Shown here: piece by piece, positions 17,538-56,700 of the stretch
Layout: the number at the start of each line of letters is the position of its first letter
Position numbering within the stretch: position 1 is the first letter of the stretch
Sequence record: NC_028248.1
Origin: Escherichia phage slur16
Strand: one strand, 5' to 3'
Length of the DNA stretch: 64,000 nt
The notes under the pieces: generated by a model
Told to the model about the DNA's origin: nothing
Databases searched by the model: none
The model's input: the letters and a program-made list of their open reading frames with translations, nothing else
Translations under genes and position numbers: made by a program

Positions 17538-19094
17538 TTAATTTTCCATGTTGGATATGGAATTATCTCTGGTTGATGACATCTTAGAAGTGCCGTTGCC
17601 AGTGGATCCTGCAGCCATTCCATCACCAGCCCTACTAATGTCCTGGCCCAAGAGCTTCATCAGCTCTTCCTGATCCATGTCCTCGTCAAATCTTTCATCA
17701 AACCCGCCTACTTCAAGAATCTTATTAATTACTGCAGGAGTTTTTGGCAAGTAACCTACAGCACCGATCCTCTGGACAAACTTGGAGAAGCTCTCCATAT
17801 CCACTTCTTCAATCAGACCAGGTTTCAGTTTAGGCATATCATCATCTTCAAGGATGATACCATTCAATGCCAGAAGCTGCGGAATAAGATCTTTATTGAA
17901 GGCCTCAGTGATAATATCTATATCACGCTGAACAAAATGACCATGGATAGACTGTTTTGACTCAGACAGAGAGAAGGACCCAACGTTATCGTTACCGAGG
18001 TTAATAAAGCCAGCACCGAAACGGTCAAGAATCGCCTTCTTACGGGCATCAATCAAATCTTTAGTGGAATACTGCTTACCCATACCGTCAACCCCCTTCA
18101 GGGTCATGGAGTAAAGCTCTTTACCAGACTTATCTCTATCAGACGGAAGTATAAAGAAACTTTGCTCACCACTATGGGCGTTTGCTGCGTCAAGCATAAG
18201 GTCTGCAACCATTCTCCCTTCCATTGAATTCGGGTCAATGCTGGCCTTGTTCAAAATATTGGAAGGAATTTTCAGCTCAAGCACACCACCAAGGTCTTTG
18301 GAACAGCCAACAACCTCAAGGTTTTCAATCAGAACTTTCTCACGGAAAGATCTGTAGCAACCTATCATCGGTGACACACCTGCAGGGTTAGATTCTGTTC
18401 CTGACAGGGTCATGAGCATAAGCTTTTTAGCAGGGATGAAAATTTCAGGCTCATTAAAGCCTTTTGAAGGCATTGCAGCAAGAGGTCCAGCCCAGCGTGC
18501 ATTCTGAGTGTTTAGAAATGCATTAGGTGATTGATAAATACCTGTCAGTGTTCTACTATTCTTGTCAAAGACAAACGGCTCTGATCTGGACAAACTGGCC
18601 TGAGGTCGGAATGCAATTTTATCAATAAGAAGCATCCCGGCATATTTACCTTCTTTCTCTCTGCGGTATACTTTCTCAAACAGTGAAAAACCATACTCGT
18701 TAAAGGTAGCTGCACTTCTTGCAATATCTCGAAGAGTTTGTTGGTTTGCCAAATTACGCAAAGAATACTCTATAAGCTCGGCAGCTTTCTTAGAGTCTTC
18801 ACTTTTAACATTATAAAGGATCTTAAAATCATTAAATGCTTTCGTGATGAAAACATATTTTGTATCTAAGGCAGTAGCAACTGTGGAATCACATTTCATA
18901 GTCTCCACTGTAGCAATCAGCTGAGGCCAACGCAATTCCTCAACCATCATAGATTGCGATTCTGCCATAATTTGGGAAAGTGCGCCAGAACCGATCTCAC
19001 TCATACGAACATTATGAGTTGGTGCGCCTGCGTTCCCAGATTTATTCACAGTTTTGGCTGTGGCGTTGTGTTTCCTGCGGTTCTTTTTGGACAC
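17538..19094 (-). CDS. portal protein
   Basis: 518 aa ORF immediately downstream of terminase large subunit. Confidence 0.7.
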   Translation of the reverse strand: MSKKNRRKHNATAKTVNKSGNAGAPTHNVRMSEIGSGALSQIMAESQSMMVEELRWPQLIATVETMKCDSTVATALDTKYVFITKAFNDFKILYNVKSEDSKKAAELIEYSLRNLANQQTLRDIARSAATFNEYGFSLFEKVYRREKEGKYAGMLLIDKIAFRPQASLSRSEPFVFDKNSRTLTGIYQSPNAFLNTQNARWAGPLAAMPSKGFNEPEIFIPAKKLMLMTLSGTESNPAGVSPMIGCYRSFREKVLIENLEVVGCSKDLGGVLELKIPSNILNKASIDPNSMEGRMVADLMLDAANAHSGEQSFFILPSDRDKSGKELYSMTLKGVDGMGKQYSTKDLIDARKKAILDRFGAGFINLGNDNVGSFSLSESKQSIHGHFVQRDIDIITEAFNKDLIPQLLALNGIILEDDDMPKLKPGLIEEVDMESFSKFVQRIGAVGYLPKTPAVINKILEVGGFDERFDEDMDQEELMKLLGQDISRAGDGMAAGSTGNGTSKMSSTRDNSISNMEN

Positions 19095-19196
19095 AAGCTT
19101 TACCCCTCAAAACAGTATAACAAAATAGCCCTCGTGTTAGAGGGCTAGTATCTCCGATTACTCTATTCTACCACATCTAATTAAGATTGGCAACAC

Positions 19197-20318
19197 TTAG
19201 ATAAAACGCTTGAACATAGAAGGTGATGAGATTGATGGAATCACACAAGGAAGTGCTACTTCCTCTTTCTCCAGGAAATTAATAGCAGAAGCTACACAGT
19301 CAGCCCAGTCGTCTTTTCTGTTAAATGTTGATCTTTCCCCGTTGAATTTTTCAAGTTCAGTCAGAAATGCTTCCAGAGTATCAGGATGGAAACTGGATTT
19401 TACAATCCTCACCATTCCTTGTTGGGCAAGATTGGCAAAAGGTGAGAACCTTGTCAGTTTAGATTTGTTGGAAGGCATTGGGTCTTCTTCAACCCTAAAC
19501 CCTTCGGCAAGCAAGGATCTGGAGGAGGTTAAGAACTCACTCTTACCTGCCTGACCGGGGTCCACAGAGAATACGATTATACAATCATCACCATCAAACT
19601 GCGCCTGTTTCCTGATGATCACATCTCGTTCACCAGCCTTTTTACAGAACTTGCCTTCTAGACCTGTGGAATACCTCCCGTCATCCACGTTCTCAGGACA
19701 ATAATCACCGGACAGGTAATAAAAGCCGTCGCTATCTTTACTTACCTTAACACTGGCGGTAAAGTCAGGAAATTTATTACCGGAAGTTCTCTCGGTTCCT
19801 GCCTTATCCCATGCCCTGCAAGATACTGATCCAAGGGGTACTCTATCGGCATCACGAAGGAAAGATCTTTGAAAATAGTTTGCGCCCTCAGGCTTTGCAA
19901 ACCAGTTACCATGAAGAAGCTGAGCTTTTTCCAGTTCCGGCAGACCTTCAAGGAAAGCAAGGTATTCTGGGTTGTCTCTTAAGCAAACAGGATTATCGAA
20001 TATTGTTGCGCCTATAAACGAGAATGACAACGGTCTTGGCTTGATCTCCACACCAAGTCCGTTAACCGTGGTGTATTTCTCTATCAACTCTTCTTTAGAG
20101 TCCCCCCAGATAAATTCACCGTCGCGTCGGATAAAATATCTTTTCTTACCGCATTTCTCCGGATCTGGATACCCTTCATCGTCCAACCACCACCTAACCA
20201 GTTTGGCAAGCATGTGTTCTGAATCGGGGTTACAGCTGATAACCATTCTTGATGGATACTTTGACTGAGATCGCAGACGAGACATCAGATAGTCTATCTG
20301 CTCCCATTCGAATTGTGT
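19197..20318 (-). CDS. terL: terminase large subunit, exon 2 (nuclease domain)
   Basis: Contains ISCNP coupling motif and acidic nuclease-type C-terminal domain; frame stays open upstream of the ORF-track ATG to ~20321 (TTQFEWEQIDYLMSRL...); 3' splice site approximate. Confidence 0.75.
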   Translation of the reverse strand, partial: TQFEWEQIDYLMSRLRSQSKYPSRMVISCNPDSEHMLAKLVRWWLDDEGYPDPEKCGKKRYFIRRDGEFIWGDSKEELIEKYTTVNGLGVEIKPRPLSFSFIGATIFDNPVCLRDNPEYLAFLEGLPELEKAQLLHGNWFAKPEGANYFQRSFLRDADRVPLGSVSCRAWDKAGTERTSGNKFPDFTASVKVSKDSDGFYYLSGDYCPENVDDGRYSTGLEGKFCKKAGERDVIIRKQAQFDGDDCIIVFSVDPGQAGKSEFLTSSRSLLAEGFRVEEDPMPSNKSKLTRFSPFANLAQQGMVRIVKSSFHPDTLEAFLTELEKFNGERSTFNRKDDWADCVASAINFLEKEEVALPCVIPSISSPSMFKRFI

Positions 20319-20637
20319 CGTTTATGTTCGGGCAAGGTCGCTAGTCTTGCCCCGCCATTTTCAGGCAGCTGCATGTCTCCATGCAGACCAGACTATATCT
20401 TATAAGCGACAACAACCGCTTATCCTCCCGTTTCGAATCGCTTGATTCTACGTCTTTCGACTAGTCGTTGAACGTTCATCCTCTCGGATGCTTCGCTGCG
20501 GATTATCTAAATTAACACACTGTTACCATACCTTCGATCTCTCTTCGAAGCCTCTATCATGTTACCATGACAGGTTGGTGGTATTAATAGTAAAGATTTC
20601 CCCGCAATTAGGGAGGTTTTACGAGAGCTACAAATTA
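20319..20637 (-). mobile_element. group I self-splicing intron (ORF-less) in terL
   Basis: Minus-sense conserved elements in order: P AAUUGCGGGGAA (20609-20598), Q AAUCCGCAGC (20504-20495), R GUUCAACGACUAGUC (20473-20459), S AAGAUAUAGUCUGG (20401-20388); no ORF; splits Walker ATPase from nuclease domain. Confidence 0.8.
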
Positions 20638-21063
20638 ACCCTCATCGAAGCAAACCATGGTGTACTCAAGCCCTTGATGGTTAAGCTTATCTTGTACATA
20701 CTCCATGTGGCAGTATTTTACAACAGCTCCCTTTTTGCTTCTATCCCACTTGCCAGTGTTCGGATCAAACCGTGGAAAAATGAACTTATGATCCTTCTCT
20801 CTGAACTTTGGCTTAATGTTTTCAGGCAGATCACTATAAATAGCTACCGCTTTAGGCCATAGTCCACCCTCACCTTCCAACTGCGGGGTTGTTCTTCGGA
20901 ACATAACCACAGAGCTGTGGGGGTCATCAATAATTTTAAGTGGCATCAATTGCAAGAGGAACGACTTGCCAGACCCTGCGGCACCGCCGATTACCAAAAT
21001 ATCTGCATCGTTTTCGAGGATCATCTTCTGCTTTTCAGAACACGGTCCGTAAATCTTAGACAT
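20638..21063 (-). CDS. terL: terminase large subunit, exon 1 (ATPase domain)
   Basis: Walker A GGAAGSGKS and Walker B-like VCFDE; ORF-track stop at 20635 lies in intron sequence. Confidence 0.8.
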
Positions 21064-21350
21064 TAACCGCTCTCCTTTGGAAACAGTGTTCTAATATAGT
21101 CTTGCAAAATGATCAATTTAGCTCTATCATTGCTACAAGACAGATTATTATCCCTCATAATGCCAGAATTCACTGCATCTGGCGCACCTTTCTTCAAAGG
21201 CATAGCTTTAGCAGGTGGTTTCATGGCACCTTCCGGGGGTTTAACAATCAACCTTCCTACATCCGGAGGGTCAATCTTGTATTCTCTCTCAACGTTGGTT
21301 GCACACCCACATAATAACAAGCACACAATAAACAGTGTAGCAACTCTCAT
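21063..21350 (-). CDS. o-spanin (outer-membrane lipoprotein, Rz1-like)
   Basis: 95 aa; signal peptide with lipobox LLLCGC; Pro-rich mature region; coupled to upstream i-spanin. Confidence 0.65.
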   Translation of the reverse strand: MRVATLFIVCLLLCGCATNVEREYKIDPPDVGRLIVKPPEGAMKPPAKAMPLKKGAPDAVNSGIMRDNNLSCSNDRAKLIILQDYIRTLFPKESG

Positions 21351-21745
21351 CGATCCTCCTGATTGATACTCTCATTATAAATATCTATAAGCTGATCAGG
21401 GAGTGTTGACTTCTTGCCTTCAGGTGACTGGAGGTAGATAATCTGCTTTTCTTTACCTGCCTTCTCAGCCATATTTAATTTATCCTGCAGATCAGAAAGG
21501 GATTTTTCAAGGTTTTTAACCTCCTCTGCGTGGCCCATTTTAATTTTGTCGGCCTGCTTTTGTTGCTGATCAAGGATCCGTTCCCACTTTAACTCTGTTG
21601 CTGACACACCCTCTTGGTAGGCTTCATTAAGCTTAAAGTTAAACCAATATACGGCTCCAAGATAAGCTGTACCTAGCGCAGCTGCAAAAACTAAACCTTT
21701 TATGATCCCTCTATACCTACTCAGCCATGTTAAAACTGAAATCAT
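21347..21745 (-). CDS. i-spanin (Rz-like)
   Basis: 132 aa; N-terminal transmembrane segment (LVFAAALGTAYLGAVYWF) then charged coiled-coil-like periplasmic domain; overlaps o-spanin start. Confidence 0.65.
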   Translation of the reverse strand: MISVLTWLSRYRGIIKGLVFAAALGTAYLGAVYWFNFKLNEAYQEGVSATELKWERILDQQQKQADKIKMGHAEEVKNLEKSLSDLQDKLNMAEKAGKEKQIIYLQSPEGKKSTLPDQLIDIYNESINQEDR

Positions 21746-21850
21746 TTTAAGGCTCCAGAAACGAAAAAACCCCGCAGCTATACAGCTAACGGGGCGGGTT
21801 AAAATTGAGTAACCTAAATAGATCGAAACTAACTAAAAGGAGACTAATAC

Positions 21851-22120
21851 TTATCGAGGCACTCGGTGGATGATTCTAACAGTAACTGCATTTTCATTCA
21901 TCAAGTATGCATCTACATCTCTGTAAATATAAAACTTCTGCTCACTATCAACAACACAAGCTACCGCCCCTTCAGAGTTGTCTTCAAAAAAGACCACCAC
22001 TGCATCGCAGCTGAGTTCATGATATGACTCTCGAAGATTTACAGCCAGAGGATTGAAATCGTCACGAAAATCTACGGTATGGGTTGGATTTACACGCTCT
22101 ACAATTTTAAGTGTATACAT
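21851..22120 (-). CDS. hypothetical protein
   Basis: Start moved to internal ATG 22120 (AGGAA RBS 8 nt upstream) so it does not overlap tRNA-Pro. Confidence 0.45.
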   Translation of the reverse strand: MYTLKIVERVNPTHTVDFRDDFNPLAVNLRESYHELSCDAVVVFFEDNSEGAVACVVDSEQKFYIYRDVDAYLMNENAVTVRIIHRVPR

Positions 22121-22166
22121 TTTAAAGGTTCCTTTTGTTTGTATATGTTTAAAGTATAACTGAAAG

Positions 22167-22243
22167 TGGTCTCCACGGAGTGATTCGAACACTCGACCTC
22201 CTGATCCCAAATCAGGCGCTCTACCAAGCTGAGCTACGCGGAG
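22167..22243 (-). tRNA. tRNA-Pro (anticodon UGG)
   Basis: Cloverleaf with C1:G72, anticodon loop UUUGGGA, T-arm GAGUG-UUCGAAU-CACUC, CCA encoded. Confidence 0.85.
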
Positions 22244-22254
22244 TATTTATTATT

Positions 22255-22329
22255 TGGTGGCCCTGGGTGGAATTGAACCACCGTCTGGCGATTATGAGTC
22301 GCTTGCTTGAACCTTCCAGCTACAGGGCC
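22255..22329 (-). tRNA. tRNA-Met (anticodon CAU; elongator, initiator or Ile-lysidine type not resolved)
   Basis: Acceptor GGCCCUG/CAGGGCC, anticodon loop CUCAUAA, T-arm GGUGG-UUCAAUU-CCACC, CCA encoded. Confidence 0.8.
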
Positions 22330-22330
22330 A

Positions 22331-22406
22331 TGGTGCTGATGGCAGGACTTGAACCTGCAACCTATTGATTACAAATCAATTGCACTACCAATTGTGCTAC
22401 ATCAGC
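22331..22406 (-). tRNA. tRNA-Thr (anticodon UGU)
   Basis: Acceptor GCUGAUG/CAUCAGC, anticodon stem AUUGA/UCAAU with loop UUUGUAA, T-arm GCAGG-UUCAAGU-CCUGC, CCA encoded. Confidence 0.85.
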
Positions 22407-22412
22407 AAAAAA

Positions 22413-22511
22413 GGTGCTAGGTGATGGAATCGAACCACCTATGTATTCAACGACTACCTCGTCTATTTTCAGGATTAAAAATCCTCGCCCTTGCCAAAGG
22501 GCTTACCTAGC
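22413..22511 (-). tRNA. aberrant tRNA-like gene (possible pseudo-tRNA; Lys-UUU-like anticodon loop but oversized variable region)
   Basis: Perfect 7 bp acceptor GCUAGGU/ACCUAGC, D-arm GCCC-UUUGGCAA-GGGC and T-arm GGUGG-UUCGAUU-CCAUC, but ~47 nt between D- and T-arms; only CC encoded at 3' end. Confidence 0.3.
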
Positions 22512-22609
22512 TCAGTATGTTGACCATGTTGCTAGTCGGCGATGACGACTGTAACATTTGATAATCCGGTTCTGCTTCCGGCTTTCGCTTAATTACAAGG
22601 TCAACAATA

Positions 22610-22700
22610 TGGCTGAGGGTAATGGAATCGAACCATCATCGAGTCATCCTCAACGGGACGGTTTTCAAGACCGCTTGAGCACCATTGCTCCCTACCCTCA
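22610..22700 (-). tRNA. tRNA-Ser (anticodon UGA), type II with long variable arm
   Basis: Anticodon arm GCGGUCUUGAAAACCGU nearly identical to E. coli tRNA-Ser(UGA); T-arm GAUGG-UUCGAUU-CCAUU; discriminator G; CCA encoded; position 1 is U. Confidence 0.8.
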
Positions 22701-22814
22701 TTTATAAACAATACTGATAATGACACTGATTTTCGAGCAGTTAGTGACTAGTATAAACGACGATAAATATCAATGCCATTATCTGTATGATTTATGCATT
22801 TAAAACTATAAATT

Positions 22815-22901
22815 TGGTGGGGAGTGGTGGAGTCGAACCACCCGAGTCGTAATGACAATAGATTTACAGTCTACACCGCTACCTCTACGGGATAACTCCC
22901 C
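22815..22901 (-). tRNA. tRNA-Tyr (anticodon GUA), type II
   Basis: Acceptor GGGGAGU/ACUCCCC; anticodon region AGACUGUAAAUCU as in E. coli tRNA-Tyr; long variable arm; T-arm GGUGG-UUCGACU-CCACC; CCA encoded. Confidence 0.85.
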
Positions 22902-22905
22902 AATT

Positions 22906-22980
22906 TGGCACCCCGTACTGGACTCGAACCAGTGTCAACGGCTTAGAAGGCCGCTGCTTTATCCACTAAGCTAACAGGGC
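22906..22980 (-). tRNA. tRNA-Arg (anticodon UCU)
   Basis: D-arm GCUU-AGUGGAUA-AAGC, anticodon stem GCGGC/GCCGU with loop CUUCUAA, T-arm ACUGG-UUCGAGU-CCAGU, CCA encoded. Confidence 0.8.
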
Positions 22981-23076
22981 ACTGGGTGGCTTTCTTTTAC
23001 ACCTTAGCCGCCAGAAAAGGTGGGAGACCATGTTTACAATATTACACTGTTAAGCAAAGTTTGTCAAGAAAATATT

Positions 23077-23415
23077 TTAGCTATTGCTAACAGGTTGTAT
23101 TTCTGTGGTAAATGGCATAAAAGGTGCTGGTTTTTCAGCCTCTTCTACTACCACCTCTTCCTCTTCACCAAACATCTCATCATATTCTTCCTGCATTCGG
23201 TCTGCCTTATCAAGAACATACTCTGCAATGCTTTGACGAATATTTTGTTTGGTTTTCGGGTCCAACATCAGCTCTCTTAGAACTTTGTGAGCTTCTGGAA
23301 CCATCGCTATAAAAGATTCCTTCATATCGAGGATGTTCTTCTCTAGCTGAATGGCGTTGGACTCCTCTTTCAGAGGTCTGCCTCTACGGCGACGCTTTTT
23401 AGTTGTATCCGCCAT
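23077..23415 (-). CDS. small basic protein with AT-hook-like RGRP motif
   Basis: Start at ATG 23415 with GGAGGA RBS; N-terminal KKRRRRGRP, acidic C-terminus; ORF-track upstream extension has no RBS. Confidence 0.45.
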   Translation of the reverse strand: MADTTKKRRRRGRPLKEESNAIQLEKNILDMKESFIAMVPEAHKVLRELMLDPKTKQNIRQSIAEYVLDKADRMQEEYDEMFGEEEEVVVEEAEKPAPFMPFTTEIQPVSNS

Positions 23416-23763
23416 GTTTCCTCCATTATCACGTGATAGGTGGATTTTATCATAGCAAATACTGATTGTCAAGTTCGCCGCAGGGTGGTATTCCCTGCGA
23501 CTTGTCCAGCGTCCTGGACCAGCAAGACCCAACAAGTGGGTTTTCCAGCTATACCCATTACCGCGCACAGGCTCGACCTTATTACAGGTTGGCTGGGGTC
23601 ACATCGTCATGTGCTGGCTGCCCCTACCATTTTAAGTGTGGTGCACTATCAAGCCCTCTAAGGGGAACTCAGCTTTCTCCGAACCCTGTTTCAAAGCATC
23701 CGGAGATAAAGCCATCAAATTCATCTTTAAATTGGATATTCATCATGATACACGAAAACAACC

Positions 23764-24006
23764 TCATTGTAAAGCACAAATAAATAAAACATACTTGATT
23801 TGTTTGTTATCGGGCTCAGGGTAGAAGTAGAAGATCTTGCTATCACCGATCTGAACACCACCATCCCAACAGCATAGCCCATAACCCGTATTCATACAAG
23901 CTAAGTCGTTGGCAAAATCTATTGCATCATCCAGTGCACGAAATTCACCTTCATCTTCTAAATAATCCTCATTCATGGAACGAAAAACGAGCTTAACCTT
24001 AAACAT
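23764..24006 (-). CDS. hypothetical protein
   Basis: 80 aa ORF in minus-strand gene string. Confidence 0.35.
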   Translation of the reverse strand: MFKVKLVFRSMNEDYLEDEGEFRALDDAIDFANDLACMNTGYGLCCWDGGVQIGDSKIFYFYPEPDNKQIKYVLFICALQ

Positions 24007-30401: not shown

Positions 30402-31684
30402 TGCATCAAATCAAAACAACACTGTACGCACTGAACAAAGATGGCAGCTACCAACAGTGGAAAGTATTCACGGATGGTGATAAGGTTATCGTAGAGTTTG
30501 GCAAGCTTGATGGTAAACTGCAATACAAAGAGACGATCTGCACACCTAAGAACGTGGGTCGCGCCAATGAAACTACAGCTGAGCAACAGGCCGAGCTGGA
30601 AGCGATCAGTAAGTGGGAAAAACAGGTCCGACTCGGGTACGTGGAGAGTATGGAAGATTGTGAGCAAGGTGTTGATCTTTTACCCATGTTGGTGCATGAC
30701 TACCTGAAGCGTGGCAAGGCACTTAAATTACCTTGCTGGATCTTGCGTAAGTTAGATGGCCTTCGTCTACTTGTTGTTTTCCAGAATGGTGAGCCTAAAT
30801 TTATTTCCCGTGGTAATAAGTCCTACCCTATTCAAGGAAAGCTTCTGGAGCAACTTCGCTCTTTCCACCTAACCACCGGGATTAAACAGCTCGACGGAGA
30901 GCTCTATATTCATGGTCTACCTCTGCAGAAAATAGTGTCTCTTGCTAAACGGTGGCGCACACAGGAAGAAATTCAGGCCGAGATCGATAAAGACTACAAG
31001 GCAGATAAAAAACGCCGTCAGGCTGCGATTAAAGCAGGTTTAGCAACATACAAAAACTTCAACAAGGTGGACATTCCTGTTGATGTTGAGCCTGTTCGTG
31101 ATGATTTGCGTTACGGAGGGTACTGCAGCTACGACTTAGAGTATCATATTTTCGATATTCCTAGCGATAAGGTGTGGTGGGATCCTGAAACAGAGTCTGG
31201 TCGCTGTAAGGATCTTATGGAGGCAAACGGTGCTATTACTTCTTTGATGCTTGATCATATTAAGGTTGTTGATGCAGAGCTTGCATATACGGTTGATCGG
31301 TGCGAAGAGTCTGTTGGTATATTTATGTCTGAAGGATATGAAGGTACCATTATGCGTAACTTCTGTGGTAAATATGAGTATGGTCAGCGAACATCTGAAG
31401 CATTGAAATGGAAAAAGTTCAACGACGCAGAGGTGAAAGTTATTGACGTTGAGAAAGATAAGAATGATGAAGGTGTTCTTATCTGTGTTGACAAGGAAGG
31501 TGTTGTTGTTAAAATGAAGATGAAAGGCACGCACGAGGAGCGTAGCTATGACAGGATGCAGGAAATGATCGGCAAGTTTGTCACCTTCAAATATCAAGCA
31601 AGGACAGAAGACAACAACTACCAATTCCCTGTCGGTATCTGCGTCCGAAATGTTAACCCAGATACTTGGGAGGTTCTGGAATGA
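30401..31684 (+). CDS. ATP-dependent DNA ligase
   Basis: Nucleotidyltransferase motif I KLDGLR (KxDGxR) in WILRKLDGLRLLVV; 427 aa. Confidence 0.7.
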   Translation: MHQIKTTLYALNKDGSYQQWKVFTDGDKVIVEFGKLDGKLQYKETICTPKNVGRANETTAEQQAELEAISKWEKQVRLGYVESMEDCEQGVDLLPMLVHDYLKRGKALKLPCWILRKLDGLRLLVVFQNGEPKFISRGNKSYPIQGKLLEQLRSFHLTTGIKQLDGELYIHGLPLQKIVSLAKRWRTQEEIQAEIDKDYKADKKRRQAAIKAGLATYKNFNKVDIPVDVEPVRDDLRYGGYCSYDLEYHIFDIPSDKVWWDPETESGRCKDLMEANGAITSLMLDHIKVVDAELAYTVDRCEESVGIFMSEGYEGTIMRNFCGKYEYGQRTSEALKWKKFNDAEVKVIDVEKDKNDEGVLICVDKEGVVVKMKMKGTHEERSYDRMQEMIGKFVTFKYQARTEDNNYQFPVGICVRNVNPDTWEVLE

Positions 31685-31808
31685 TGTAGGATGGTTTAGT
31701 AGGTAACGGTAGCCAATTGAATGATGGTTTTTCAATTGGCACCTACATAACCACACTATGCAGTGTTGTTGATCGGGTTAGTTATGAGCAAACTGGAGAG
31801 TATGAAAA

Positions 31809-32279
31809 ATGAAACTTGATAAAAATGTTCAACGAAAAGCTTTCTTGGATATGATCGCATATTCGGAAGGAACAGATAATGGTAGACAACCTACCAAGGA
31901 TCGGGGGTACGATGTCATAGTCGGCGGCAAGCTGTTCAGCGATTACAGCAAGCATCCAGGTGTTTACGTTAAGCTAAATGCTAAACTTACCTCCTCCGCT
32001 GCTGGTCGTTACCAGGTTTTGGAGAAGTTTGCTAAACACTACATGAAACAGTTAGGATTACCAGATTTTGGCCCTGCCAGTCAGGACAAGATTGCGTTGC
32101 AACTGATCCGTGAGTGCAAGGCTCTCGCCGACATTGACGAAGGGCGTATCCACGAAGCTATCCGCAAATGCCGTTCCCGCTGGGCTTCGTTACCCGGCGC
32201 TGGATATGGTCAGCATGAACAGAAGATCGAGAAGTTGATCGAGGTGTTTAAAAAGGCAGGCGGCATTGTCCTGGATTGA
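31809..32279 (+). CDS. endolysin (lambda R-like lytic transglycosylase)
   Basis: Close match to lambda R: NVQRKAFLDMIAYSEGTDNGRQ, GYDVIVGG, AAGRYQ, WASLPGAGYGQ. Confidence 0.85.
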   Translation: MKLDKNVQRKAFLDMIAYSEGTDNGRQPTKDRGYDVIVGGKLFSDYSKHPGVYVKLNAKLTSSAAGRYQVLEKFAKHYMKQLGLPDFGPASQDKIALQLIRECKALADIDEGRIHEAIRKCRSRWASLPGAGYGQHEQKIEKLIEVFKKAGGIVLD

Positions 32280-32342
32280 TCATTGACATAACCACACGGA
32301 CGTGGTATTGTTACCTCATAAAATGTTATGGAGTGTTTAACC

Positions 32343-32549
32343 ATGAAAGATTTTCTGTTGGCAATTTTGTTCATGGCAGCATGTCTGGCCTGTGGTGTCG
32401 TGTTTGCAGGTGAAACAGCGTATCTTGTCGATGTGTATCGGGACAATGGTAAACGTATTTGCCTTTATGAGACAAGCCAAGGTGAGCTCTACGAGCTTGT
32501 GAAACAAGGTGAGGCAGGTTCCTGCCCTCGCACCCATTTCTTTGAATAA
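32343..32549 (+). CDS. small secreted protein / putative lipoprotein
   Basis: N-terminal signal-like MKDFLLAILFMAACLACGVVFA; start at ATG 32343 (GGAG 9 nt upstream). Confidence 0.4.
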   Translation: MKDFLLAILFMAACLACGVVFAGETAYLVDVYRDNGKRICLYETSQGELYELVKQGEAGSCPRTHFFE

Positions 32550-32558
32550 GGGGGATAC

Positions 32559-33023
32559 GTGGAAGACGGACGTTTAATGAGGTCTGAACGCAGGCTTATT
32601 GTGCAACTGATCCCAGAAACAGCTTGGTATAATAACCTCCGAAACGCTGTGAAGAAGAGTGAGTGGGATAAGATCCGTAAGAAGTGCTACAGAGAGGCAA
32701 ACTACACTTGCGAGGTGTGCGGCGGTAAAGGCAGCAAACATCCAGTGGAGTGTCATGAACTTTACACTTTCGAAGAGGGAGTGATCCGGCTTGTCGGACT
32801 GATAGCGTTGTGCCCAGATTGTCACACATCGGTACATCCTGGATTAGCAAATATCCGTGGAAAGTATGCTCAGGCAGTTAATCAGTTGGCTAAGGTGAAT
32901 AAGATCACCAGAGGTATGGCAGAGGCGTATTACCGAGACTGCTTTGCAGAGTGGCGCGAGCTTAGTAAAGTTCCAGAATGGAAGACTGACTTTTCGTGGA
33001 TAGAGGGTTACCTTGATGGCTAA
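32559..33023 (+). CDS. HNH-type zinc-finger nuclease (free-standing)
   Basis: CEVCGG...HPVECHELY...CPDCHTSVH cysteine/histidine pattern; GTG start with GGGGGA RBS. Confidence 0.45.
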   Translation: MEDGRLMRSERRLIVQLIPETAWYNNLRNAVKKSEWDKIRKKCYREANYTCEVCGGKGSKHPVECHELYTFEEGVIRLVGLIALCPDCHTSVHPGLANIRGKYAQAVNQLAKVNKITRGMAEAYYRDCFAEWRELSKVPEWKTDFSWIEGYLDG

Positions 33024-33306
33024 GAGATCTGTAAAAGAGAAATTCGATAAGACAGCTTTTGTATTCGATACACCTCTGGACGATATCATCAGGGGTATGC
33101 AAGCCTTGTATCGGAAGGCTGAATCTGAGCAGTTGTCTGAATCAGAACTTTACTGGCTTGGTTGGTGGGAGTTAAACCTGCCTAAAGCTGAAAGCTCTTG
33201 TCTGAGAACTGTTAAAACGTGCGCCCAAGAAAACGCTGCACTTGGAATCTACCACAAAAGGAAAAGATCAACAAAAAGCTCTCCAAGAAAGACTAAAAAG
33301 TCTTGA
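33013..33306 (+). CDS. hypothetical protein with basic C-terminal tail
   Basis: 97 aa; C-terminus HKRKRSTKSSPRKTKKS. Confidence 0.4.
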   Translation: MMAKRSVKEKFDKTAFVFDTPLDDIIRGMQALYRKAESEQLSESELYWLGWWELNLPKAESSCLRTVKTCAQENAALGIYHKRKRSTKSSPRKTKKS

Positions 33307-33332
33307 CAAAAGTGTTATTAATCTGATATTAT
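33303..33332 (+). promoter_or_regulatory. sigma70-like promoter
   Basis: TTGACA (33303-33308), 18 nt spacer, TATTAT (33327-33332); AGGAG RBS and ATG 33366 downstream. Confidence 0.55.
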
Positions 33333-33365
33333 CGGTCAGATATCTATAAACTAGGAGAACTAGGT

Positions 33366-33674
33366 ATGCTTAAAATTTTTATTGTTGAAGATAAAGATAT
33401 TGTCCAGTTGTATGCAAACGAGAATCATAAAGGTATGATTCTGAAGAAGGCAAGCAACCTTCATGAAAACACAATTCAACCTGGCGATGTAATTAAGATC
33501 TGTGGTTATATGATACCAGACTCCTTGATGAAAATAACCCACCACTGGGGGTCTAATCCGTTCCTTTTTGAAAAGTATTGGGATGTTGAGTCACTTATTG
33601 CAGAGAGTGATGATGCATTCCATTACAGCATCCAACCATCTTGCAGAATAACTAACAGGAGGGTCTTTGAGTAG
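33366..33674 (+). CDS. hypothetical protein
   Basis: 102 aa ORF behind promoter and RBS. Confidence 0.45.
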   Translation: MLKIFIVEDKDIVQLYANENHKGMILKKASNLHENTIQPGDVIKICGYMIPDSLMKITHHWGSNPFLFEKYWDVESLIAESDDAFHYSIQPSCRITNRRVFE

Positions 33675-53471: not shown

Positions 53472-53866
53472 AGATTGAGATTACTAAAGAAGGTAAGAAA
53501 GTGTCCGGCAACTATGCAACAGTAATTCGGGATTTAATGTTTGAAGCCACCAAGATCGGTACATCTAAAGTTGGTCAAACTGTTAGTGTGAAAAGTAATA
53601 TCTCCACAGGAGAGAAGGTATTCATTGTGGTCAAAGGGCAGGATCCCGTGGAAGGAACAGTGGGCCGAGGTGGCTACCTGTGCATTTCTGAAGAGCCGCG
53701 TATGTTAGTGGCTGACGCTACTATGGGTGGGAAACGTGTGTGCGAGGCGGATGAGGTAATGATTATCCAACCTGTTGATCCAGATGACCCAGCAACTTGG
53801 GTGGTAGGAAATGAAATCTTCTCTTTAGAAGAGTTATCCTTCCCAGCACCGCGCTCTGTTCAGTAA
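53468..53866 (+). CDS. hypothetical protein
   Basis: 132 aa ORF, ATGA-coupled. Confidence 0.4.
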   Translation: MKIEITKEGKKVSGNYATVIRDLMFEATKIGTSKVGQTVSVKSNISTGEKVFIVVKGQDPVEGTVGRGGYLCISEEPRMLVADATMGGKRVCEADEVMIIQPVDPDDPATWVVGNEIFSLEELSFPAPRSVQ

Positions 53867-53903
53867 TAATTTATCTTACCAGGGACGGTAGGTAGGAGGT
53901 AGC

Positions 53904-54137
53904 ATGAAAGTTAAATTTCTTACAGATTTAGGGTACCCTTCCTTGGTTGACTGTGTTGGTAAAATTGTGGAAGCAAAACGGCTATCTGCAAACGAGAATG
54001 TTGTCCTGGTTAAAGGGAAGGATTTACTAGCTGCAGGTGCAGAGTCTGGCAGGATCTCTCCTGATTATATGTATTACCTATCTTTAAGTAATCTGCCAGA
54101 GCGAGGCGGTAAAGGCCTTGAAGTTGTGGAGGAGTGA
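53904..54137 (+). CDS. small protein, paralog family A
   Basis: MKVKFL...LVKGKDLLAAGA...LEVVEE; shares N-terminus, KG-DL-AAGA core and VVEE-type end with 57463, 57680 and others. Confidence 0.5.
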   Translation: MKVKFLTDLGYPSLVDCVGKIVEAKRLSANENVVLVKGKDLLAAGAESGRISPDYMYYLSLSNLPERGGKGLEVVEE

Positions 54138-54667
54138 CAGGTATGCTTCTGATTAACTGGGAAGACCTCTATGGGGACAAAGACCCTGTTGCGTTTGTTG
54201 ATCGTAGGTGGAGATACACTGAAGAACAACTGGCGGCAAAAAATTTAACTGCAAAACGCAGAAAGATCATCCAGTGCAAGTACAAATACGCACAGTTTGC
54301 TGCAAAAGTGTCTCCACAAATCGAGAGCTTTGTGCTTAAATTGTATGACGAGTACCTCAAATTCAAATTGGATTTTGTGCAGGTGTACCGTGCACAGGTA
54401 CGACCAGATACCAACATATGTAGATGGAAGGTTGTTTGTGAAGGTAAAGATTTGCCGCTCAGCTTGACAATTGAGTGGCGTTATGGGTATCATGAGTGTG
54501 GTCTGTATGATATTTGGGATGTCATTGTAGATCCTGCTAAGCATCTGAACACAGAGGAGCTGGAATATATCAATAAGGTTATTCTCGATATGTTTTTCAG
54601 CTACACACATGAAAACTCTGAGAAAGAACGGGATAATTTTCTTGACACCCTCAGCGACCATTTGTAG
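54134..54667 (+). CDS. hypothetical protein
   Basis: 177 aa ORF. Confidence 0.4.
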   Translation: MTGMLLINWEDLYGDKDPVAFVDRRWRYTEEQLAAKNLTAKRRKIIQCKYKYAQFAAKVSPQIESFVLKLYDEYLKFKLDFVQVYRAQVRPDTNICRWKVVCEGKDLPLSLTIEWRYGYHECGLYDIWDVIVDPAKHLNTEELEYINKVILDMFFSYTHENSEKERDNFLDTLSDHL

Positions 54668-54697
54668 TATACAATTTAACCTACAAAGGGAGGACCA

Positions 54698-54925
54698 ATG
54701 AGTATAAATGTTGTGCTAATAGGTTACCTGGTAATGTCCGTTATAACAGCGGTATTCTTGACAGGTGTATGCATCGTGTCCAGACGAAGGGTGAAGTTTG
54801 ATGATTTTATCACCATCATCACTGCTGCACCTTTTTGGCCTGTTGTTATCTTCATCGTAATAATGTGCCTAGTTGATTACTACAAGAATATCAGGAAGGA
54901 GAGTAGGGATGGAGACCGCACCTAA
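54698..54925 (+). CDS. small membrane protein with two predicted TM helices (holin-like topology)
   Basis: Hydrophobic stretches VVLIGYLVMSVITAVFLTGVCIV and ITIITAAPFWPVVIFIVIMCLV, charged C-terminus. Confidence 0.4.
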   Translation: MSINVVLIGYLVMSVITAVFLTGVCIVSRRRVKFDDFITIITAAPFWPVVIFIVIMCLVDYYKNIRKESRDGDRT

Positions 54926-55061
54926 AACTATCTATACTGTTCTTAAAGAGATTGCGTTCTACGCAGATCTTAGCCAGGCACCTTTATGGGAAAAGAGCAT
55001 GTATTTAAAATGGTGCGTTAATTTAGGGAGACCTTCCAGTGTTTCAAGCCATGTTTATTGA
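54909..55061 (+). CDS. hypothetical small protein
   Basis: ATG 54909 with AGGAAGGAGAG RBS; overlaps upstream gene end. Confidence 0.3.
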   Translation: METAPKTIYTVLKEIAFYADLSQAPLWEKSMYLKWCVNLGRPSSVSSHVY

Positions 55062-55144
55062 GATGCTATCTGGGATATTGTTACTGGTAGCCATCTTAGG
55101 TGGTGCAGTTCTGATGTATAACTATCTTGAAAAAGGAGACAGCA

Positions 55145-55330
55145 ATGGTAAAAAATAAATCTTTAGAGCAGGCTGAAAACCTTCTCCACGAGCTGGTAAA
55201 GGAGTGGAAAGTTGAATACTCAGATTTTAATGCACGAGAGGGTGAAGATTATTGGCCTACGGAGCGCTCAGAGGGCGAATGGTATCAAGATTTTATAGAG
55301 TGGTTATATCAGACGTGCGATGAGGGGTGA
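55145..55330 (+). CDS. hypothetical acidic protein
   Basis: Start at ATG 55145 with AGGAG RBS. Confidence 0.4.
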   Translation: MVKNKSLEQAENLLHELVKEWKVEYSDFNAREGEDYWPTERSEGEWYQDFIEWLYQTCDEG

Positions 55331-55797
55331 CGATGTTTGTTAAATATGTAAAAACGTGCCTCAACAGTCTTGGCAGAGAGCATTGGTACACCTTGCTTGA
55401 AAAAGGGGAAATTTTAACAAAATCTGGAAAGATAACTTTGATACCTCTTGATAGTAAAGGTAAAGACCCGTCACGACTTGTTATAGATGATTACGTTACA
55501 GGTGTGACGTTCGAGGTCTCTGTGGAGAGGTTAATACGCAGAACTGGCGGCCCTTATGACCGAAGAGAGTATGTTTTCGATTCCGTTACAGAGATGGGGG
55601 AGCATCCGTCTTTAATGTTCAGGATGGTAATCAGAGATATGAGGTCATCTATAGATAGGATCGTAAAGGACATTAAGGAACCTTTTAGAGTAAAAGTTAA
55701 GAAGTTTTTCGATTCTAAGATTAACATACTCGCCGTTGCACTAGGTGTAGTTCAACTTCTGTTAATTTTGCACTATTTTGAACTACTATTTAAGTAG
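55327..55797 (+). CDS. hypothetical protein with C-terminal TM segment
   Basis: 156 aa; C-terminal hydrophobic ILAVALGVVQLLLILHYFELLF. Confidence 0.4.
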   Translation: MTMFVKYVKTCLNSLGREHWYTLLEKGEILTKSGKITLIPLDSKGKDPSRLVIDDYVTGVTFEVSVERLIRRTGGPYDRREYVFDSVTEMGEHPSLMFRMVIRDMRSSIDRIVKDIKEPFRVKVKKFFDSKINILAVALGVVQLLLILHYFELLFK

Positions 55798-55859
55798 TAG
55801 TTGAGATATGGCACAAAGGATGTGCCATAGTGAAATAAACTAAGAAAGAGGTAGAGAGA

Positions 55860-56207
55860 ATGCCAAAGATTAAAACGTTATTACTGTGGGTAGCTGTTTT
55901 AGCTTTTATAGGGTACTGGACTTGGGAAACTGAATTAAAAGATATCGGATATACCAGTCTTGAGAGCAAGGCGTGCATTGGCATAACCGATGCGTTCAGG
56001 CAAAATGCTATGGATCACGAATGTGTTGATGCAGATATAGATGAGAAACTGTCTAAGGACAAAGATTTTTACCATGGGCATGCTTTACTTGATAGTGGTG
56101 ACACTGTAGAGTTCTGGTCGTGGTTTCGTGAAGATGGAACAATAAAAACAGCAGTAAAGATCTCTAACAAAGAGTTAATGCTGTTGCAGCAAAAGGAGGC
56201 TCAATGA
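55860..56207 (+). CDS. hypothetical protein with N-terminal signal/anchor
   Basis: N-terminus MPKIKTLLLWVAVLAFIGYWTW. Confidence 0.4.
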   Translation: MPKIKTLLLWVAVLAFIGYWTWETELKDIGYTSLESKACIGITDAFRQNAMDHECVDADIDEKLSKDKDFYHGHALLDSGDTVEFWSWFREDGTIKTAVKISNKELMLLQQKEAQ

Positions 56208-56491: not shown

Positions 56492-56682
56492 AAAACTTAC
56501 GTTTTAACACTTATTACTACAACACATTGAATGATTTGTATTATATTGTTCGAAGTAAAAGTCCTGAAACAGTCCTATTCTGCCGCGAACCTTTCAAAGG
56601 GGAGGAAGTAGAGTCTGAGATGAATGTTAGCCAGATCACCTCTTTGTTGCTCTCAGGCGCAATGGAAGAAGCAATATTCTAA
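56488..56682 (+). CDS. hypothetical protein
   Basis: 64 aa, coupled. Confidence 0.35.
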   Translation: MKNLRFNTYYYNTLNDLYYIVRSKSPETVLFCREPFKGEEVESEMNVSQITSLLLSGAMEEAIF

Positions 56683-56700
56683 ACCAGGCAGGAGGGTTTT

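What the first reader, a model, noticed from the sequence alone, without database searches (positions are those of the whole stretch)
21063..21745. Dispersed lysis functions: spanins beside terL, endolysin 10 kb away on the other arm, no holin beside either
The i-spanin/o-spanin pair is on the minus strand between terL and the tRNA cluster. The lambda R-like endolysin (31809-32279) is on the plus-strand early arm, followed by a small signal-peptide protein (32343-32549). No holin lies next to either; the two-TM protein at 54698-54925 is one candidate. Holin identity and lysis timing are therefore open.
Basis: partly seen in the sequence, partly recalled or inferred. Interest (0 to 1): 0.4.

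Follow-up and report, generated by a model that had tools for sequence, protein, structure and literature searches.

The report
Scattered lysis genes of an rV5-like phage

Summary
The window is 100% identical to Escherichia phage slur12, an rV5-like Vequintavirus. They are an i-spanin/o-spanin pair coupled to terL, a soluble lambda-R-type endolysin 10.4 kb away on the other strand, a 68-aa signal-peptide protein, and a 75-aa two-TMD protein.

None of this is new. RefSeq rV5 annotates the spanins, and Kongari 2018 lists an rv5 spanin family. The CB7 paper notes the terL-adjacent position. The LL12, Gotham and KPP-1 papers state that the holin is unidentified. Kropinski 2013 already proposed the 75-aa ortholog (rV5 ORF 129) as the holin.

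That candidate looks weak. It occurs only in this genus, lies among small ORFs rich in sigma70-like sites, and sits next to no lysis gene.

A better candidate lies 17.6 kb outside the window. It is the 88-aa rV5 ORF 29 family (phrog_1322) in the late tail-fibre cluster. In five of five Mu-like phages or prophages examined, its homolog lies between a soluble endolysin (three enzyme classes) and embedded Rz/Rz1 spanins.

The finding as stated is ordinary. The holin lead is testable.

The parts
21347..21745 (-). [quoted passage not shown]
   Evidence: phrog_4297 Rz-like spanin, E 2.3e-49. Hydropathy peak at aa 13-29. Annotated as spanin in rV5 RefSeq gp068 and in Mangalyan.
21063..21350 (-). o-spanin (95 aa): outer-membrane lipoprotein precursor with lipobox LCG|C16 and a Pro-rich mature part. 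Its start overlaps the i-spanin stop (ATGA) and its stop overlaps the terL start (TAATG).
   Evidence: phrog_1267 Rz-like spanin, E 2.2e-22. Lipobox regex match, 9 Pro, Cys at 16 and 72. Junction sequences. rV5 gp067.
21764..21795 (-). Terminator-like hairpin (11 bp) plus U6, ending about 19 nt upstream of the i-spanin start codon
   Evidence: Sequence. RNA fold -16.9 kcal/mol, z = -3.7, 0 of 200 shuffles as stable. Function inferred only.
20635..21063 (-). terL 5' exon (Walker A ATPase part), translationally coupled to the o-spanin
   Evidence: ORF list. Annotated as terminase large subunit in relatives.
20369..20647 (-). Group I intron interrupting terL
   Evidence: Rfam RF00028, 84.3 bits (gathering score 50), E 3.6e-21, full length. 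The rV5 and LL12 papers report terL introns.
19197..20285 (-). terL 3' exon ORF, followed by a terminator-like site at 19126-19147
   Evidence: ORF list. Terminator scan. rV5 annotates a terminator there.
22167..22980 (-). tRNA cluster (Pro, Met, Thr, one odd 99-nt tRNA-like gene, Ser, Tyr, Arg) upstream of the spanins, with a sigma70-like site at 23039-23067
   Evidence: ARAGORN. Rfam. Promoter scan. rV5 annotates P(tRNA).
31809..32279 (+). Soluble lambda-R-type endolysin (156 aa, catalytic Glu20, no signal or SAR segment)
   Evidence: PDB 1am7 E 1.5e-56 and 3d3d. phrog_90 endolysin, E 4.7e-56. The LysECP26 paper reports that enzyme as 98% identical to the rV5 endolysin, and it is experimentally lytic.
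31745..31769 (+). Promoter-like element ACATAACCACAC-N7-TGTTGT upstream of the endolysin. A second copy lies at 32286-32311 upstream of the 68-aa gene.
   Evidence: Pattern found twice in the window and 0 times in 100 shuffles. Sequences. Function inferred only.
32343..32549 (+). 68-aa protein with an N-terminal signal peptide (probable VFA|GE cleavage) and a 45-aa mature part with two Cys. Most likely a secreted periplasmic protein, not a holin.
   Evidence: phrog_4641, unknown function. At least 95% identical across the genus. The Kashira homolog has an AHA|SQ site and the same two Cys, and is not next to an endolysin.
54698..54925 (+). 75-aa protein with two strong TMDs and a charged C-tail. 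It is the ortholog of rV5 ORF 129, the holin proposed in 2013. I judge it a weak candidate.
   Evidence: Hydropathy. Orthology to rV5 94058-94294. Genus-restricted, 114 records. phrog_10061, unknown function. No relation to phrog_1322.
54642..54670 (+). Sigma70-like site TTGACA-17-TAGTAT, 28 nt upstream of the 75-aa gene
   Evidence: Promoter scan. Conserved in rV5, absent in FV3. A consensus match only.

Best explanation
The window is part of phage slur12, an rV5-like Vequintavirus. It carries an ordinary three-step lysis system for a Gram-negative host, with the genes dispersed as in T4 and T7.

Shown:
- A soluble lambda-R-type muralytic enzyme (31809-32279) is encoded on the plus-strand replication arm. 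It has no export signal, so it needs a hole in the inner membrane.
- A two-component spanin of the separated type (i-spanin 21347-21745, o-spanin 21063-21350) is encoded on the minus-strand arm. It forms one translationally coupled chain with terL.

Inferred:
- The holin that times lysis is not the 75-aa two-TMD protein in the window.
- It is more likely the 88-aa protein of family phrog_1322 (rV5 ORF 29; slur12 86484-86750), about 17.6 kb beyond the left end of the window.
- That gene lies in the late tail-fibre cluster, two genes downstream of the tail-fibre assembly gene. T4 t (after gene 38) and T7 17.5 (after gene 17) occupy comparable positions.
- Late transcription of that cluster would let the protein accumulate in the inner membrane. 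It would then trigger and release the pre-made endolysin. The spanin complex would then fuse the inner and outer membranes.

My probabilities: about 0.9 for the dispersed T4/T7-style arrangement, and about 0.55 for ORF 29 as the holin.
For: Identity and prior annotation. Endolysin. Spanins and coupling to terL.

The ORF 29 family:
- The slur12 protein matches phrog_1322 at E 2.7e-32.
- It is predicted to have two weakly hydrophobic TMDs. The N- and C-terminal parts carry 3 K/R each and the loop carries none. The hydrophilic C-tail is variable in length and charged.
- It is conserved across Vequintavirinae, phi92-like phages and Aeromonas, Pseudomonas and Stenotrophomonas myophages, 372 records. 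The profile search found 64 representatives, each standing for a cluster at 50% identity.
- It keeps its place in the tail-fibre cluster in GAP31, CR9 and Aeromonas 2L372X.
- Homologs occupy the slot between a soluble endolysin and embedded Rz/Rz1 spanins in 5 of 5 Mu-like loci read. These are Pseudomonas phage Bise (M15 peptidase), Ralstonia phage YO098_1 (PDB 7q47-type endolysin), and Cupriavidus, Jeongeupia and Neisseriaceae prophages. I read the prophage endolysins from their sequence motifs as 7q47-like, amidase-like and M15-like.
- hhalign of the Vequintavirus family against the Bise protein gives probability 97.2%, E 4.7e-11. Against the Ralstonia protein it gives 95.2%, E 2.9e-8.
- The 2013 rV5 TMD screen recorded no TMD for ORF 29, which explains why it was never considered.
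Against: - No experiment and no transcript data exist for any of these genes.
- The ORF 29 family matches no curated holin family in Pfam or PHROGs. Its only outside matches are weak ones to DUF2644 in 5 of 62 members.
- Its hydrophobic segments are weak (KD peaks 1.27 and 0.95), and the second contains a conserved Lys.
- Strict synteny with tail-fibre genes could instead mean a morphogenetic or exclusion role. A few records label homologs 'structural protein'.
- In a lysis cassette the gene after the endolysin can be an antiholin, as P2 lysA is.
- The candidate lies outside the window, so nothing in the window itself identifies the holin.
Confidence: 0.6

Rival explanations
1. The 75-aa two-TMD protein in the window (54698-54925, ortholog of rV5 ORF 129) is the holin, encoded away from the endolysin as in T4. 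This is what Kropinski et al. proposed in 2013 and what the first reader suggested.
For: It is small, has two strongly hydrophobic TMDs and has a Lys/Arg-rich C-tail. It is on the same strand and arm as the endolysin. TMD2 and the loop are invariant between orthologs that are 53% identical overall, so it is under selection.
Against: - It is found only in the genus Vequintavirus, 114 records. The spanins and the ORF 29 family extend across the subfamily.
- It lies 22 kb from the endolysin, among small ORFs. In 50-64 kb, 13 of the 14 best sigma70-like sites are on its strand. One sits directly upstream of it in slur12 and rV5, which suggests early rather than late expression.
- It has no holin-family match and no lysis-gene neighbour in any genome seen.
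- The Center for Phage Technology annotators of LL12 did not accept any holin call.
Confidence: 0.15
2. The ORF 29 family is a lysis regulator or has a function unrelated to lysis, and the real holin is another unrecognised membrane protein. ORF 29 could be an antiholin, a tail-fibre assembly or membrane-docking factor, or a superinfection-exclusion protein. Possible real holins include the 104-aa N-TMD plus coiled-coil protein (rV5 ORF 31) and the 123-aa two-TMD protein at slur12 133250-133621. Lysis might also use the signal-peptide SleB-like hydrolase (slur12 105287-105787) through a different route.
For: - Other membrane proteins exist in the genome.
- ORF 31 is as widely conserved as ORF 29 and sits beside it.
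- ORF 31 has the N-out TMD plus cytoplasmic helical topology of the Mu gp25 releasin. The profile comparison with DUF2730 is collinear but weak, P 0.0045.
- The exported SleB-like enzyme matches endolysin PHROGs.
- Membrane proteins embedded in tail-fibre clusters are often exclusion proteins (my own knowledge of T5 Llp and phi80 Cor).
Against: - ORF 31 to DUF2730 homology is not established (probability 7.8%; 1.4% against the Bise 92-aa protein).
- The 123-aa protein lies among small ORFs near the genome end.
- No small TMD ORF flanks the SleB-like gene.
- An exclusion or receptor-masking role fits poorly with a family conserved across phages of six or more host genera. It also does not explain why the family recurs between endolysin and spanin genes in Mu-like elements with three endolysin classes.
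Confidence: 0.2

Closest known systems
Phage T4 lysis genes (e, t, pseT.3/pseT.2 spanins)
   Same: The lysis genes are scattered in a large virulent myophage. The endolysin is soluble. The i- and o-spanin genes are adjacent and do not share an extended overlap. The holin gene lies directly after the tail-fibre assembly gene (t after gene 38), a position resembling that of the ORF 31/ORF 29 membrane cassette. rIIA/rIIB homologs are present in rV5. The T4 gene order is from my own knowledge.
   Different: The endolysin here is lambda-R-type, not T4 lysozyme. No homolog of T4 T, RI or RIII was detected. The candidate holin has two TMDs, whereas T has one TMD and a large periplasmic domain. The spanins here are coupled to terL.
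Phage T7 / SP6 arrangement (3.5, 17.5, 18.5/18.7, 19)
   Same: The spanin genes lie immediately beside the large terminase gene. The CB7 paper notes this for rV5, PVP-SE1 and CB7, and for SP6 and VP4. In T7 the holin follows the tail-fibre gene and the lysin lies in the early/middle region (my own knowledge).
   Different: T7 18.7 is embedded in 18.5, whereas here the two genes overlap only by ATGA. The T7 lysin is an amidase. There is no sequence relationship between the holins.
Lambda S-R-Rz/Rz1 cassette
   Same: The endolysin is a clear lambda R homolog (1am7, E 1.5e-56), with 62% identity reported for LysECP26. The three-step logic is the same: holin, endolysin, spanin.
   Different: There is no cassette. 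No S-like gene lies upstream of the R homolog. The spanin architecture is separated, not embedded.
Lysis cassettes of Mu-like phages and prophages of Beta/Gammaproteobacteria (Bise, YO098_1, Cupriavidus, Jeongeupia, Neisseriaceae loci)
   Same: They contain a homolog of rV5 ORF 29 (phrog_1322; hhalign 95-97%). In Bise the o-spanin falls in the same PHROG (phrog_1267) as the slur12 o-spanin.
   Different: There the gene is in a compact cassette, endolysin then 2-TMD gene then embedded spanins, just before terS/terL. In slur12 the homolog is in the tail-fibre cluster, far from both the endolysin and the spanins.
Mu gp25 releasin (DUF2730)
   Same: rV5 ORF 31 (104 aa) has the same length class and predicted N-out TMD plus cytoplasmic helical domain.
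   Different: Homology is not demonstrated (hhalign probability 7.8%). Releasin acts on SAR endolysins, whereas the slur12 endolysin has no SAR domain.

Membership tests
Two-component spanin (Kongari et al. 2018 criteria) | i-spanin: a single N-terminal TMD (type II) followed by a mainly helical periplasmic domain | tested here: met
   Hydropathy peak at aa 13-29 with a charged helical remainder. phrog_4297, E 2.3e-49.
Two-component spanin (Kongari et al. 2018 criteria) | o-spanin: signal sequence with a lipobox [ILMFTV][^REKD][GAS]C and no Asp at +2 | tested here: met
   L13-C14-G15-C16 followed by Ala17. phrog_1267, E 2.2e-22.
Two-component spanin (Kongari et al. 2018 criteria) | The two genes are adjacent, overlapping or embedded | tested here: met
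   4-nt ATGA overlap. This counts as the separated class, since Kongari classes an 8-bp overlap as separated.
Two-component spanin (Kongari et al. 2018 criteria) | Required for outer-membrane disruption (spherical-cell arrest when absent) | not testable with these tools
   Needs genetics or complementation of lambda Rz/Rz1 amber mutants.
Lambda R-type endolysin (lytic transglycosylase) | Full-length sequence homology to lambda R with the catalytic Glu conserved | tested here: met
   1am7 E 1.5e-56 over residues 4-154, with SEGT conserved. Glu20 is noted for LysECP26.
Lambda R-type endolysin (lytic transglycosylase) | Cytoplasmic (no signal or SAR segment), hence holin-dependent | tested here: met
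   The N-terminus MKLDKNVQRKAFLDM is hydrophilic, and no hydropathy segment was found.
Lambda R-type endolysin (lytic transglycosylase) | Transglycosylase rather than hydrolase chemistry | not testable with these tools
   Only lytic activity of LysECP26 is reported. The paper gives it as 98% identical to the rV5 endolysin.
Holin: the 75-aa window protein (54698-54925) | Small inner-membrane protein with at least one TMD and a charged C-terminus | tested here: met
   Two TMDs with KD 2.6. C-tail DYYKNIRKESRDGDRT.
Holin: the 75-aa window protein (54698-54925) | Encoded with, or co-conserved with, the other lysis genes | tested here: not met
   22 kb from the endolysin and 33 kb from the spanins. 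Genus-restricted, while the spanins are subfamily-wide.
Holin: the 75-aa window protein (54698-54925) | Late expression | tested here: inconclusive
   A near-consensus sigma70-like site lies directly upstream in slur12 and rV5 but not in FV3. No transcript data exist.
Holin: the 75-aa window protein (54698-54925) | Homology to a described holin family | tested here: not met
   Only phrog_10061 (unknown function). No Pfam or NCBIfam match.
Holin: the 75-aa window protein (54698-54925) | Lethal, triggerable hole formation that releases endolysin | not testable with these tools
   Needs expression experiments.
Holin: rV5 ORF 29 family (phrog_1322; outside the window) | Small protein with two predicted TMDs, N-in/C-in topology and a hydrophilic charged C-tail | tested here: met
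   Segments at aa 25-41 and 54-70 (weak, KD 1.27 and 0.95). K/R counts are 3 / 0 / 3 for N-part / loop / C-part. The C-tail is variable and charged.
Holin: rV5 ORF 29 family (phrog_1322; outside the window) | Occurs in lysis cassettes next to an endolysin and spanins | tested here: met
   5 of 5 Mu-like loci read show soluble endolysin, then the family member, then i-spanin with embedded o-spanin. Three endolysin classes are represented. Not met in slur12 itself, where it lies in the tail-fibre cluster.
Holin: rV5 ORF 29 family (phrog_1322; outside the window) | Homology to a described holin family | tested here: not met
   PHROGs labels it 'membrane protein'. No Pfam holin match. Weak DUF2644 hits in 5 of 62 members.
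Holin: rV5 ORF 29 family (phrog_1322; outside the window) | Lethal, triggerable hole formation | not testable with these tools
   Needs expression and complementation experiments.
Releasin / DUF2730: rV5 ORF 31 family (outside the window) | Sequence membership in PF10805 | tested here: not met
   GAP31_228 scores E 0.12 (13 bits, cutoff 24.9). The slur12 protein has no hit. hhalign against a DUF2730 alignment gives probability 7.8%.

The most novel reading that the evidence does not exclude
The small membrane-protein family phrog_1322 (rV5 ORF 29; remotely DUF2644-like) is an unrecognised holin family. On this reading it is the missing holin of the rV5, PVP-SE1 and phi92-like myophages, where it is hidden in the tail-fibre cluster. 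It would also be the holin of a set of Mu-like phages and prophages, where it sits between the endolysin and embedded Rz/Rz1. The neighbouring N-TMD plus coiled-coil protein (rV5 ORF 31) would be a lysis accessory with releasin-like topology.
Probability: 0.5. Interest if true: 0.5.

Novelty: already known. Interest (0 to 1): 0.3.

Why it matters
The finding as stated adds nothing to the record. The phage is sequenced, its spanins and endolysin are annotated, the terL-adjacent spanin position is published, and the absence of a recognisable holin has been noted repeatedly.

The follow-up has modest value. rV5-like phages are widely used for E. coli O157 and APEC biocontrol, and their holin has been reported as unidentified since 2013. 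Pointing to one specific, conserved 88-aa gene turns that gap into a one-plasmid experiment. The argument rests on where homologs sit in Mu-like lysis cassettes. If it holds, about 370 phage records could be re-annotated, and a new two-TMD holin family with unusually weak hydrophobicity would be defined.

Tried and rejected
- Homology route to a holin. PHROGs, Pfam and NCBIfam scans of every small TMD protein found in the window and in the rest of slur12 gave no holin family.
- The 68-aa protein beside the endolysin as holin or antiholin. Rejected as a holin. It has a cleavable-looking signal peptide and two conserved Cys, and its Kashira homolog is not next to an endolysin. An RI- or Sp-like periplasmic regulator role remains pure speculation.
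- ORF 31 as a Mu gp25-type releasin. Against gp25 alone the probability is 0.8%. Against a 15-sequence DUF2730 alignment it is 7.8%, P 0.0045. Against the Bise 92-aa protein it is 1.4%. Not established.
- DUF2644 as a lead. Only weak hits were found, Mu proteins are not DUF2644, and no literature exists.
- A small TMD ORF overlapping the SleB-like hydrolase, as proposed for CB7. None is present in slur12.
- Relation between the 75-aa protein and phrog_1322. None found.
- Transcriptome data for rV5-like phages. None found.
- The phi92 paper is not held.
- Most fetched loci never appeared in the Python sandbox, so neighbour analysis was done by reading ORF lists, and only five Mu-like loci were inspected.
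- My first hydropathy screen (threshold 1.6) missed ORF 29, as the 2013 TMHMM/Phobius screen did.
Full report
**Identity of the window.** Bases 19000-24000, 31000-33400 and 53800-55900 are each 100% identical to Escherichia phage slur12 (LN881735.1, 136,898 bp). The window runs on the slur12 minus strand, so window position w corresponds to slur12 position 68875 - w. The same stretches are 95-99% identical to many rV5-like phages of the genus Vequintavirus. The window is therefore 64 kb of a known 137-kb genome.

**Check of the observation: spanins.**
- The i-spanin ORF 21347-21745(-) encodes 132 aa with one N-terminal TMD and a Cys-free, charged helical remainder. It matches phrog_4297 'Rz-like spanin' at E 2.3e-49.
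- The o-spanin ORF 21063-21350(-) encodes 95 aa beginning MRVATLFIVCLLLCGC. Its lipobox L13-C14-G15-C16 fits the published pattern and is followed by Ala.
- The mature o-spanin has 9 prolines and one further Cys. It matches phrog_1267 'Rz-like spanin' at E 2.2e-22.
- The i-spanin stop and o-spanin start overlap as ATGA. The o-spanin stop and the terL start overlap as TAATG. The three genes therefore form one translationally coupled chain.
- Upstream lie an 89-aa ORF without a TMD and seven tRNA genes.

**Check of the observation: other features.**
- The endolysin ORF 31809-32279(+) matches lambda lysozyme structures 1am7 and 3d3d at E about 1e-56. The catalytic Glu is conserved and the N-terminus is hydrophilic.
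- LysECP26, an rV5-like endolysin reported as 98% identical to the rV5 enzyme, has been purified and shown to be lytic.
- The 68-aa ORF 32343-32549 and the 75-aa two-TMD ORF 54698-54925 are as described.
- No TMD protein other than the 68-aa one flanks the spanins or the endolysin.

**What is already known.**
- RefSeq rV5 annotates gp067/gp068 as Rz-like spanins, and the Mangalyan record names them O- and I-spanin.
- Kongari et al. 2018 list an 'rv5' spanin family with seven members.
- The CB7 paper states that in CB7, rV5 and PVP-SE1 the spanin pair is not in a classic cassette but lies next to the large terminase gene, as in SP6 and VP4.
- The Gotham and KPP-1 papers say the same about the holin.
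- The rV5 genome paper of 2013 scanned the proteome with TMHMM and Phobius. [quoted passage not shown]
- rV5 'ORF 129' is at 94058-94294 and is the ortholog of window 54698-54925, at 92% identity.

**How good is the in-window candidate?**
- The 75-aa protein has two very hydrophobic TMDs and a charged tail.
- TMD2 and the loop (KFDDFITIITAAPFWPVV) are invariant between orthologs that are only 53% identical overall.
- tblastn finds it only in Vequintavirus (114 records, 55-100% identity). The spanin family and other core genes extend across the subfamily.
- It lies in a region of small ORFs that includes several other tiny membrane proteins.
- In 50-64 kb, 13 of the 14 best sigma70-like matches are on its strand. 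One of them (TTGACA-17-TAGTAT, 54642-54670) lies 28 nt upstream of its start. This site is conserved in rV5 but absent in FV3.
- These are consensus matches, not evidence of function. They fit an early host-takeover region better than a late lysis gene.
- Topology by the positive-inside rule is ambiguous: 4 K/R in the loop against 5 in the C-tail.
- No holin family matches it.

**The 68-aa neighbour of the endolysin.**
- It is at least 95% identical across the genus.
- The distant homolog in Serratia phage Kashira has an AHA|SQ signal-peptidase site and the same two cysteines. It lies in the syntenic ligase-to-RNase H region without an adjacent endolysin.
- It is most simply a secreted periplasmic protein.
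- The endolysin gene is bracketed by two copies of a promoter-like element, ACATAACCACAC-N7/8-T(G/A)TTGT. This pattern occurs twice in the window and in none of 100 shuffles. That could mean co-regulation, or it could be a footprint of the lysin gene's insertion.

**Search of the rest of the genome.**
- I fetched the remainder of slur12 and screened for TMDs.
- Two small membrane proteins sit in the late tail-fibre cluster, directly after the tail-fibre assembly gene. [quoted passage not shown] The other is an 88-aa protein (slur12 86484-86750; rV5 ORF 29; phrog_1322, E 2.7e-32).
- My first screen missed the 88-aa protein because its hydrophobic segments are weak, with KD peaks of 1.27 and 0.95.
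- The 2013 rV5 table likewise records no TMD for ORF 29.
- Both families are conserved across Vequintavirinae.
- ORF 29 homologs also occur in phi92-like phages and in Aeromonas, Pseudomonas and Stenotrophomonas myophages. tblastn finds 372 records. A profile search finds 64 representatives, each standing for a cluster at 50% identity.
- In GAP31/PVP-SE1, CR9 and Aeromonas phage 2L372X the order is: tail-fibre assembly gene, ORF 31-like, a multi-TMD protein of about 150 aa, ORF 29-like. slur12 lacks the middle gene and has a tail-fibre paralog in its place.

**Context of ORF 29 homologs elsewhere.**
- In Pseudomonas phage Bise, a Mu-like phage with Gam and Mor, the order after Mor is as follows:
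  - a soluble M15 peptidase endolysin (PF13539, E 2e-13; endolysin PHROGs);
  - an 80-aa phrog_1322 member (E 1.2e-19), whose coding region overlaps the end of the endolysin gene by 4 nt;
  - an i-spanin with an embedded o-spanin, which falls in phrog_1267, the same PHROG as the slur12 o-spanin;
  - a 92-aa N-TMD plus coiled-coil protein;
  - terS and terL.
- In Ralstonia phage YO098_1 the order is endolysin (PDB 7q47 'Endolysin', E 1.9e-32), an 81-aa family member, then an i-spanin with an embedded lipobox o-spanin.
- A degenerate-pattern scan of bacterial genomes found 12 prophage loci. The three I read show the same order. By motif inspection only, I read their endolysins as 7q47-like in Cupriavidus, T7-lysozyme-type amidase-like in Jeongeupia, and M15-like in the Neisseriaceae bacterium.
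- hhalign of the Vequintavirus family against the Bise protein gives probability 97.2%, E 4.7e-11, across both TMDs. Against the Ralstonia protein it gives 95.2%, E 2.9e-8.
- The pattern is a conserved small two-TMD protein with a variable charged tail, some homologs carrying an extra N-terminal TMD. It sits between interchangeable soluble endolysins and spanins. This is what a holin looks like.
- This is guilt by association, not proof. An antiholin or another regulator could occupy the same slot.

**Likely mechanism.**
- Shown: the endolysin is soluble and needs a membrane lesion. The spanins are canonical and coupled to terL.
- Inferred: the spanin-terL chain is preceded by a stable hairpin plus U6 (21764-21795; -16.9 kcal/mol, z = -3.7). 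No room is left for a promoter between that hairpin and the start codon. Expression would therefore depend on read-through from the tRNA-cluster transcript, or on an unrecognised late promoter.
- Inferred: the endolysin has its own promoter-like element.
- Inferred: the holin, probably ORF 29, is made with the tail fibres late in infection and sets lysis time by triggering.
- The layout parallels T7 (lysin early/middle, holin after the tail-fibre gene, spanins beside terL) and T4 (t after gene 38). Those gene orders are from my own knowledge.

**ORF 31 and the releasin idea.** Mu gp25, the DUF2730 'releasin', is a 99-aa N-out TMD protein with a cytoplasmic helical domain. ORF 31 has the same architecture. 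Homology is not established. GAP31_228 scores E 0.12 against PF10805. hhalign against a DUF2730 alignment is collinear over 88 columns but reaches only 7.8% probability.

**Verdict.** The proposed candidate is probably not the holin. The useful output is a specific, testable alternative outside the window. I rate the interest of the finding as given as low. I put the probability of the ORF 29 holin hypothesis at about 0.5-0.55. If it proved true it would be of moderate interest to people who work on phage lysis.

Noticed in passing
window 20369-20647 (-): terL is split by a full-length group I intron (Rfam RF00028, 84 bits). rV5 itself has a three-piece terL with an HNH endonuclease, which slur12 lacks at this site. 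This is already known for the group.
   Followed up: partly
window 22413-22511 (-): There is a 99-nt tRNA-like gene for which ARAGORN reports a 4-base anticodon (atcc) and no amino-acid identity. Rfam tRNA scores 35.5 bits, just above the gathering score. Other records call it tRNA-OTHER, tRNA-Pseudo or tRNA-Lys. It could be an intron-containing, degenerate or frameshift-suppressor-like tRNA.
   Followed up: no
window 21764-21795 (-): A stable terminator-like hairpin plus U6 lies immediately upstream of the i-spanin start codon, between the tRNA/89-aa-ORF unit and the spanin-terL chain. It implies read-through or attenuation control of spanin and terminase expression.
   Followed up: partly
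window 31745-31769 and 32286-32311 (+): Two copies of ACATAACCACAC-N7/8-T(G/A)TTGT bracket the endolysin gene (2 matches in the window, 0 in 100 shuffles). This could be a shared promoter type for the lysin and the 68-aa gene, or a footprint of lysin-cassette insertion.
   Followed up: partly
window 54600-62300 (+): A run of very small membrane proteins lies here: 75 aa with 2 TMDs; 39 aa at 55039-55158; 115 aa at 55860-56207; 33 aa at 59068-59169; 27 aa at 61853-61936; 87 aa at 61946-62209. The 156-aa C-tail-anchored virion protein (55327-55797, rV5 gp133) is also here. The region is dense in near-consensus sigma70-like sites, nearly all on the plus strand.
   Followed up: partly
slur12 105287-105787 (outside the window; L003 36488-36988): A SleB-like cell-wall hydrolase with a clear N-terminal signal peptide matches phrog_938 'endolysin' at E 1.7e-27. 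It is a second, exported muralytic enzyme of unknown role. Unlike the arrangement proposed for phage CB7, it has no small TMD ORF next to it.
   Followed up: partly
L010 3496-3936 (Aeromonas phage 2L372X, NC_048770): An unannotated 146-aa multi-TMD ORF lies between the ORF 31-like and ORF 29-like genes. It is the counterpart of GAP31_229 and CR9 gp030. slur12 has lost this middle gene of the three-gene membrane cassette.
   Followed up: no
phage database hits: About 19 records named 'Campylobacter phage' (MG0656xx, host given as C. jejuni) are 96-100% identical to E. coli rV5-like phages over every stretch queried. They have no annotation and look like mislabelled or contaminant assemblies.
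   Followed up: no
L014 4734-5012, L022 3526-3768, L015 3590-3811, L021 3514-3774: The Mu-like cassettes that carry the phrog_1322 gene also carry, after the spanins, a small single-TMD coiled-coil protein. In Bise this is phrog_462, labelled 'lipoprotein'. It occupies the position of the Mu gp25 releasin, although the endolysins there are not SAR types.
   Followed up: partly
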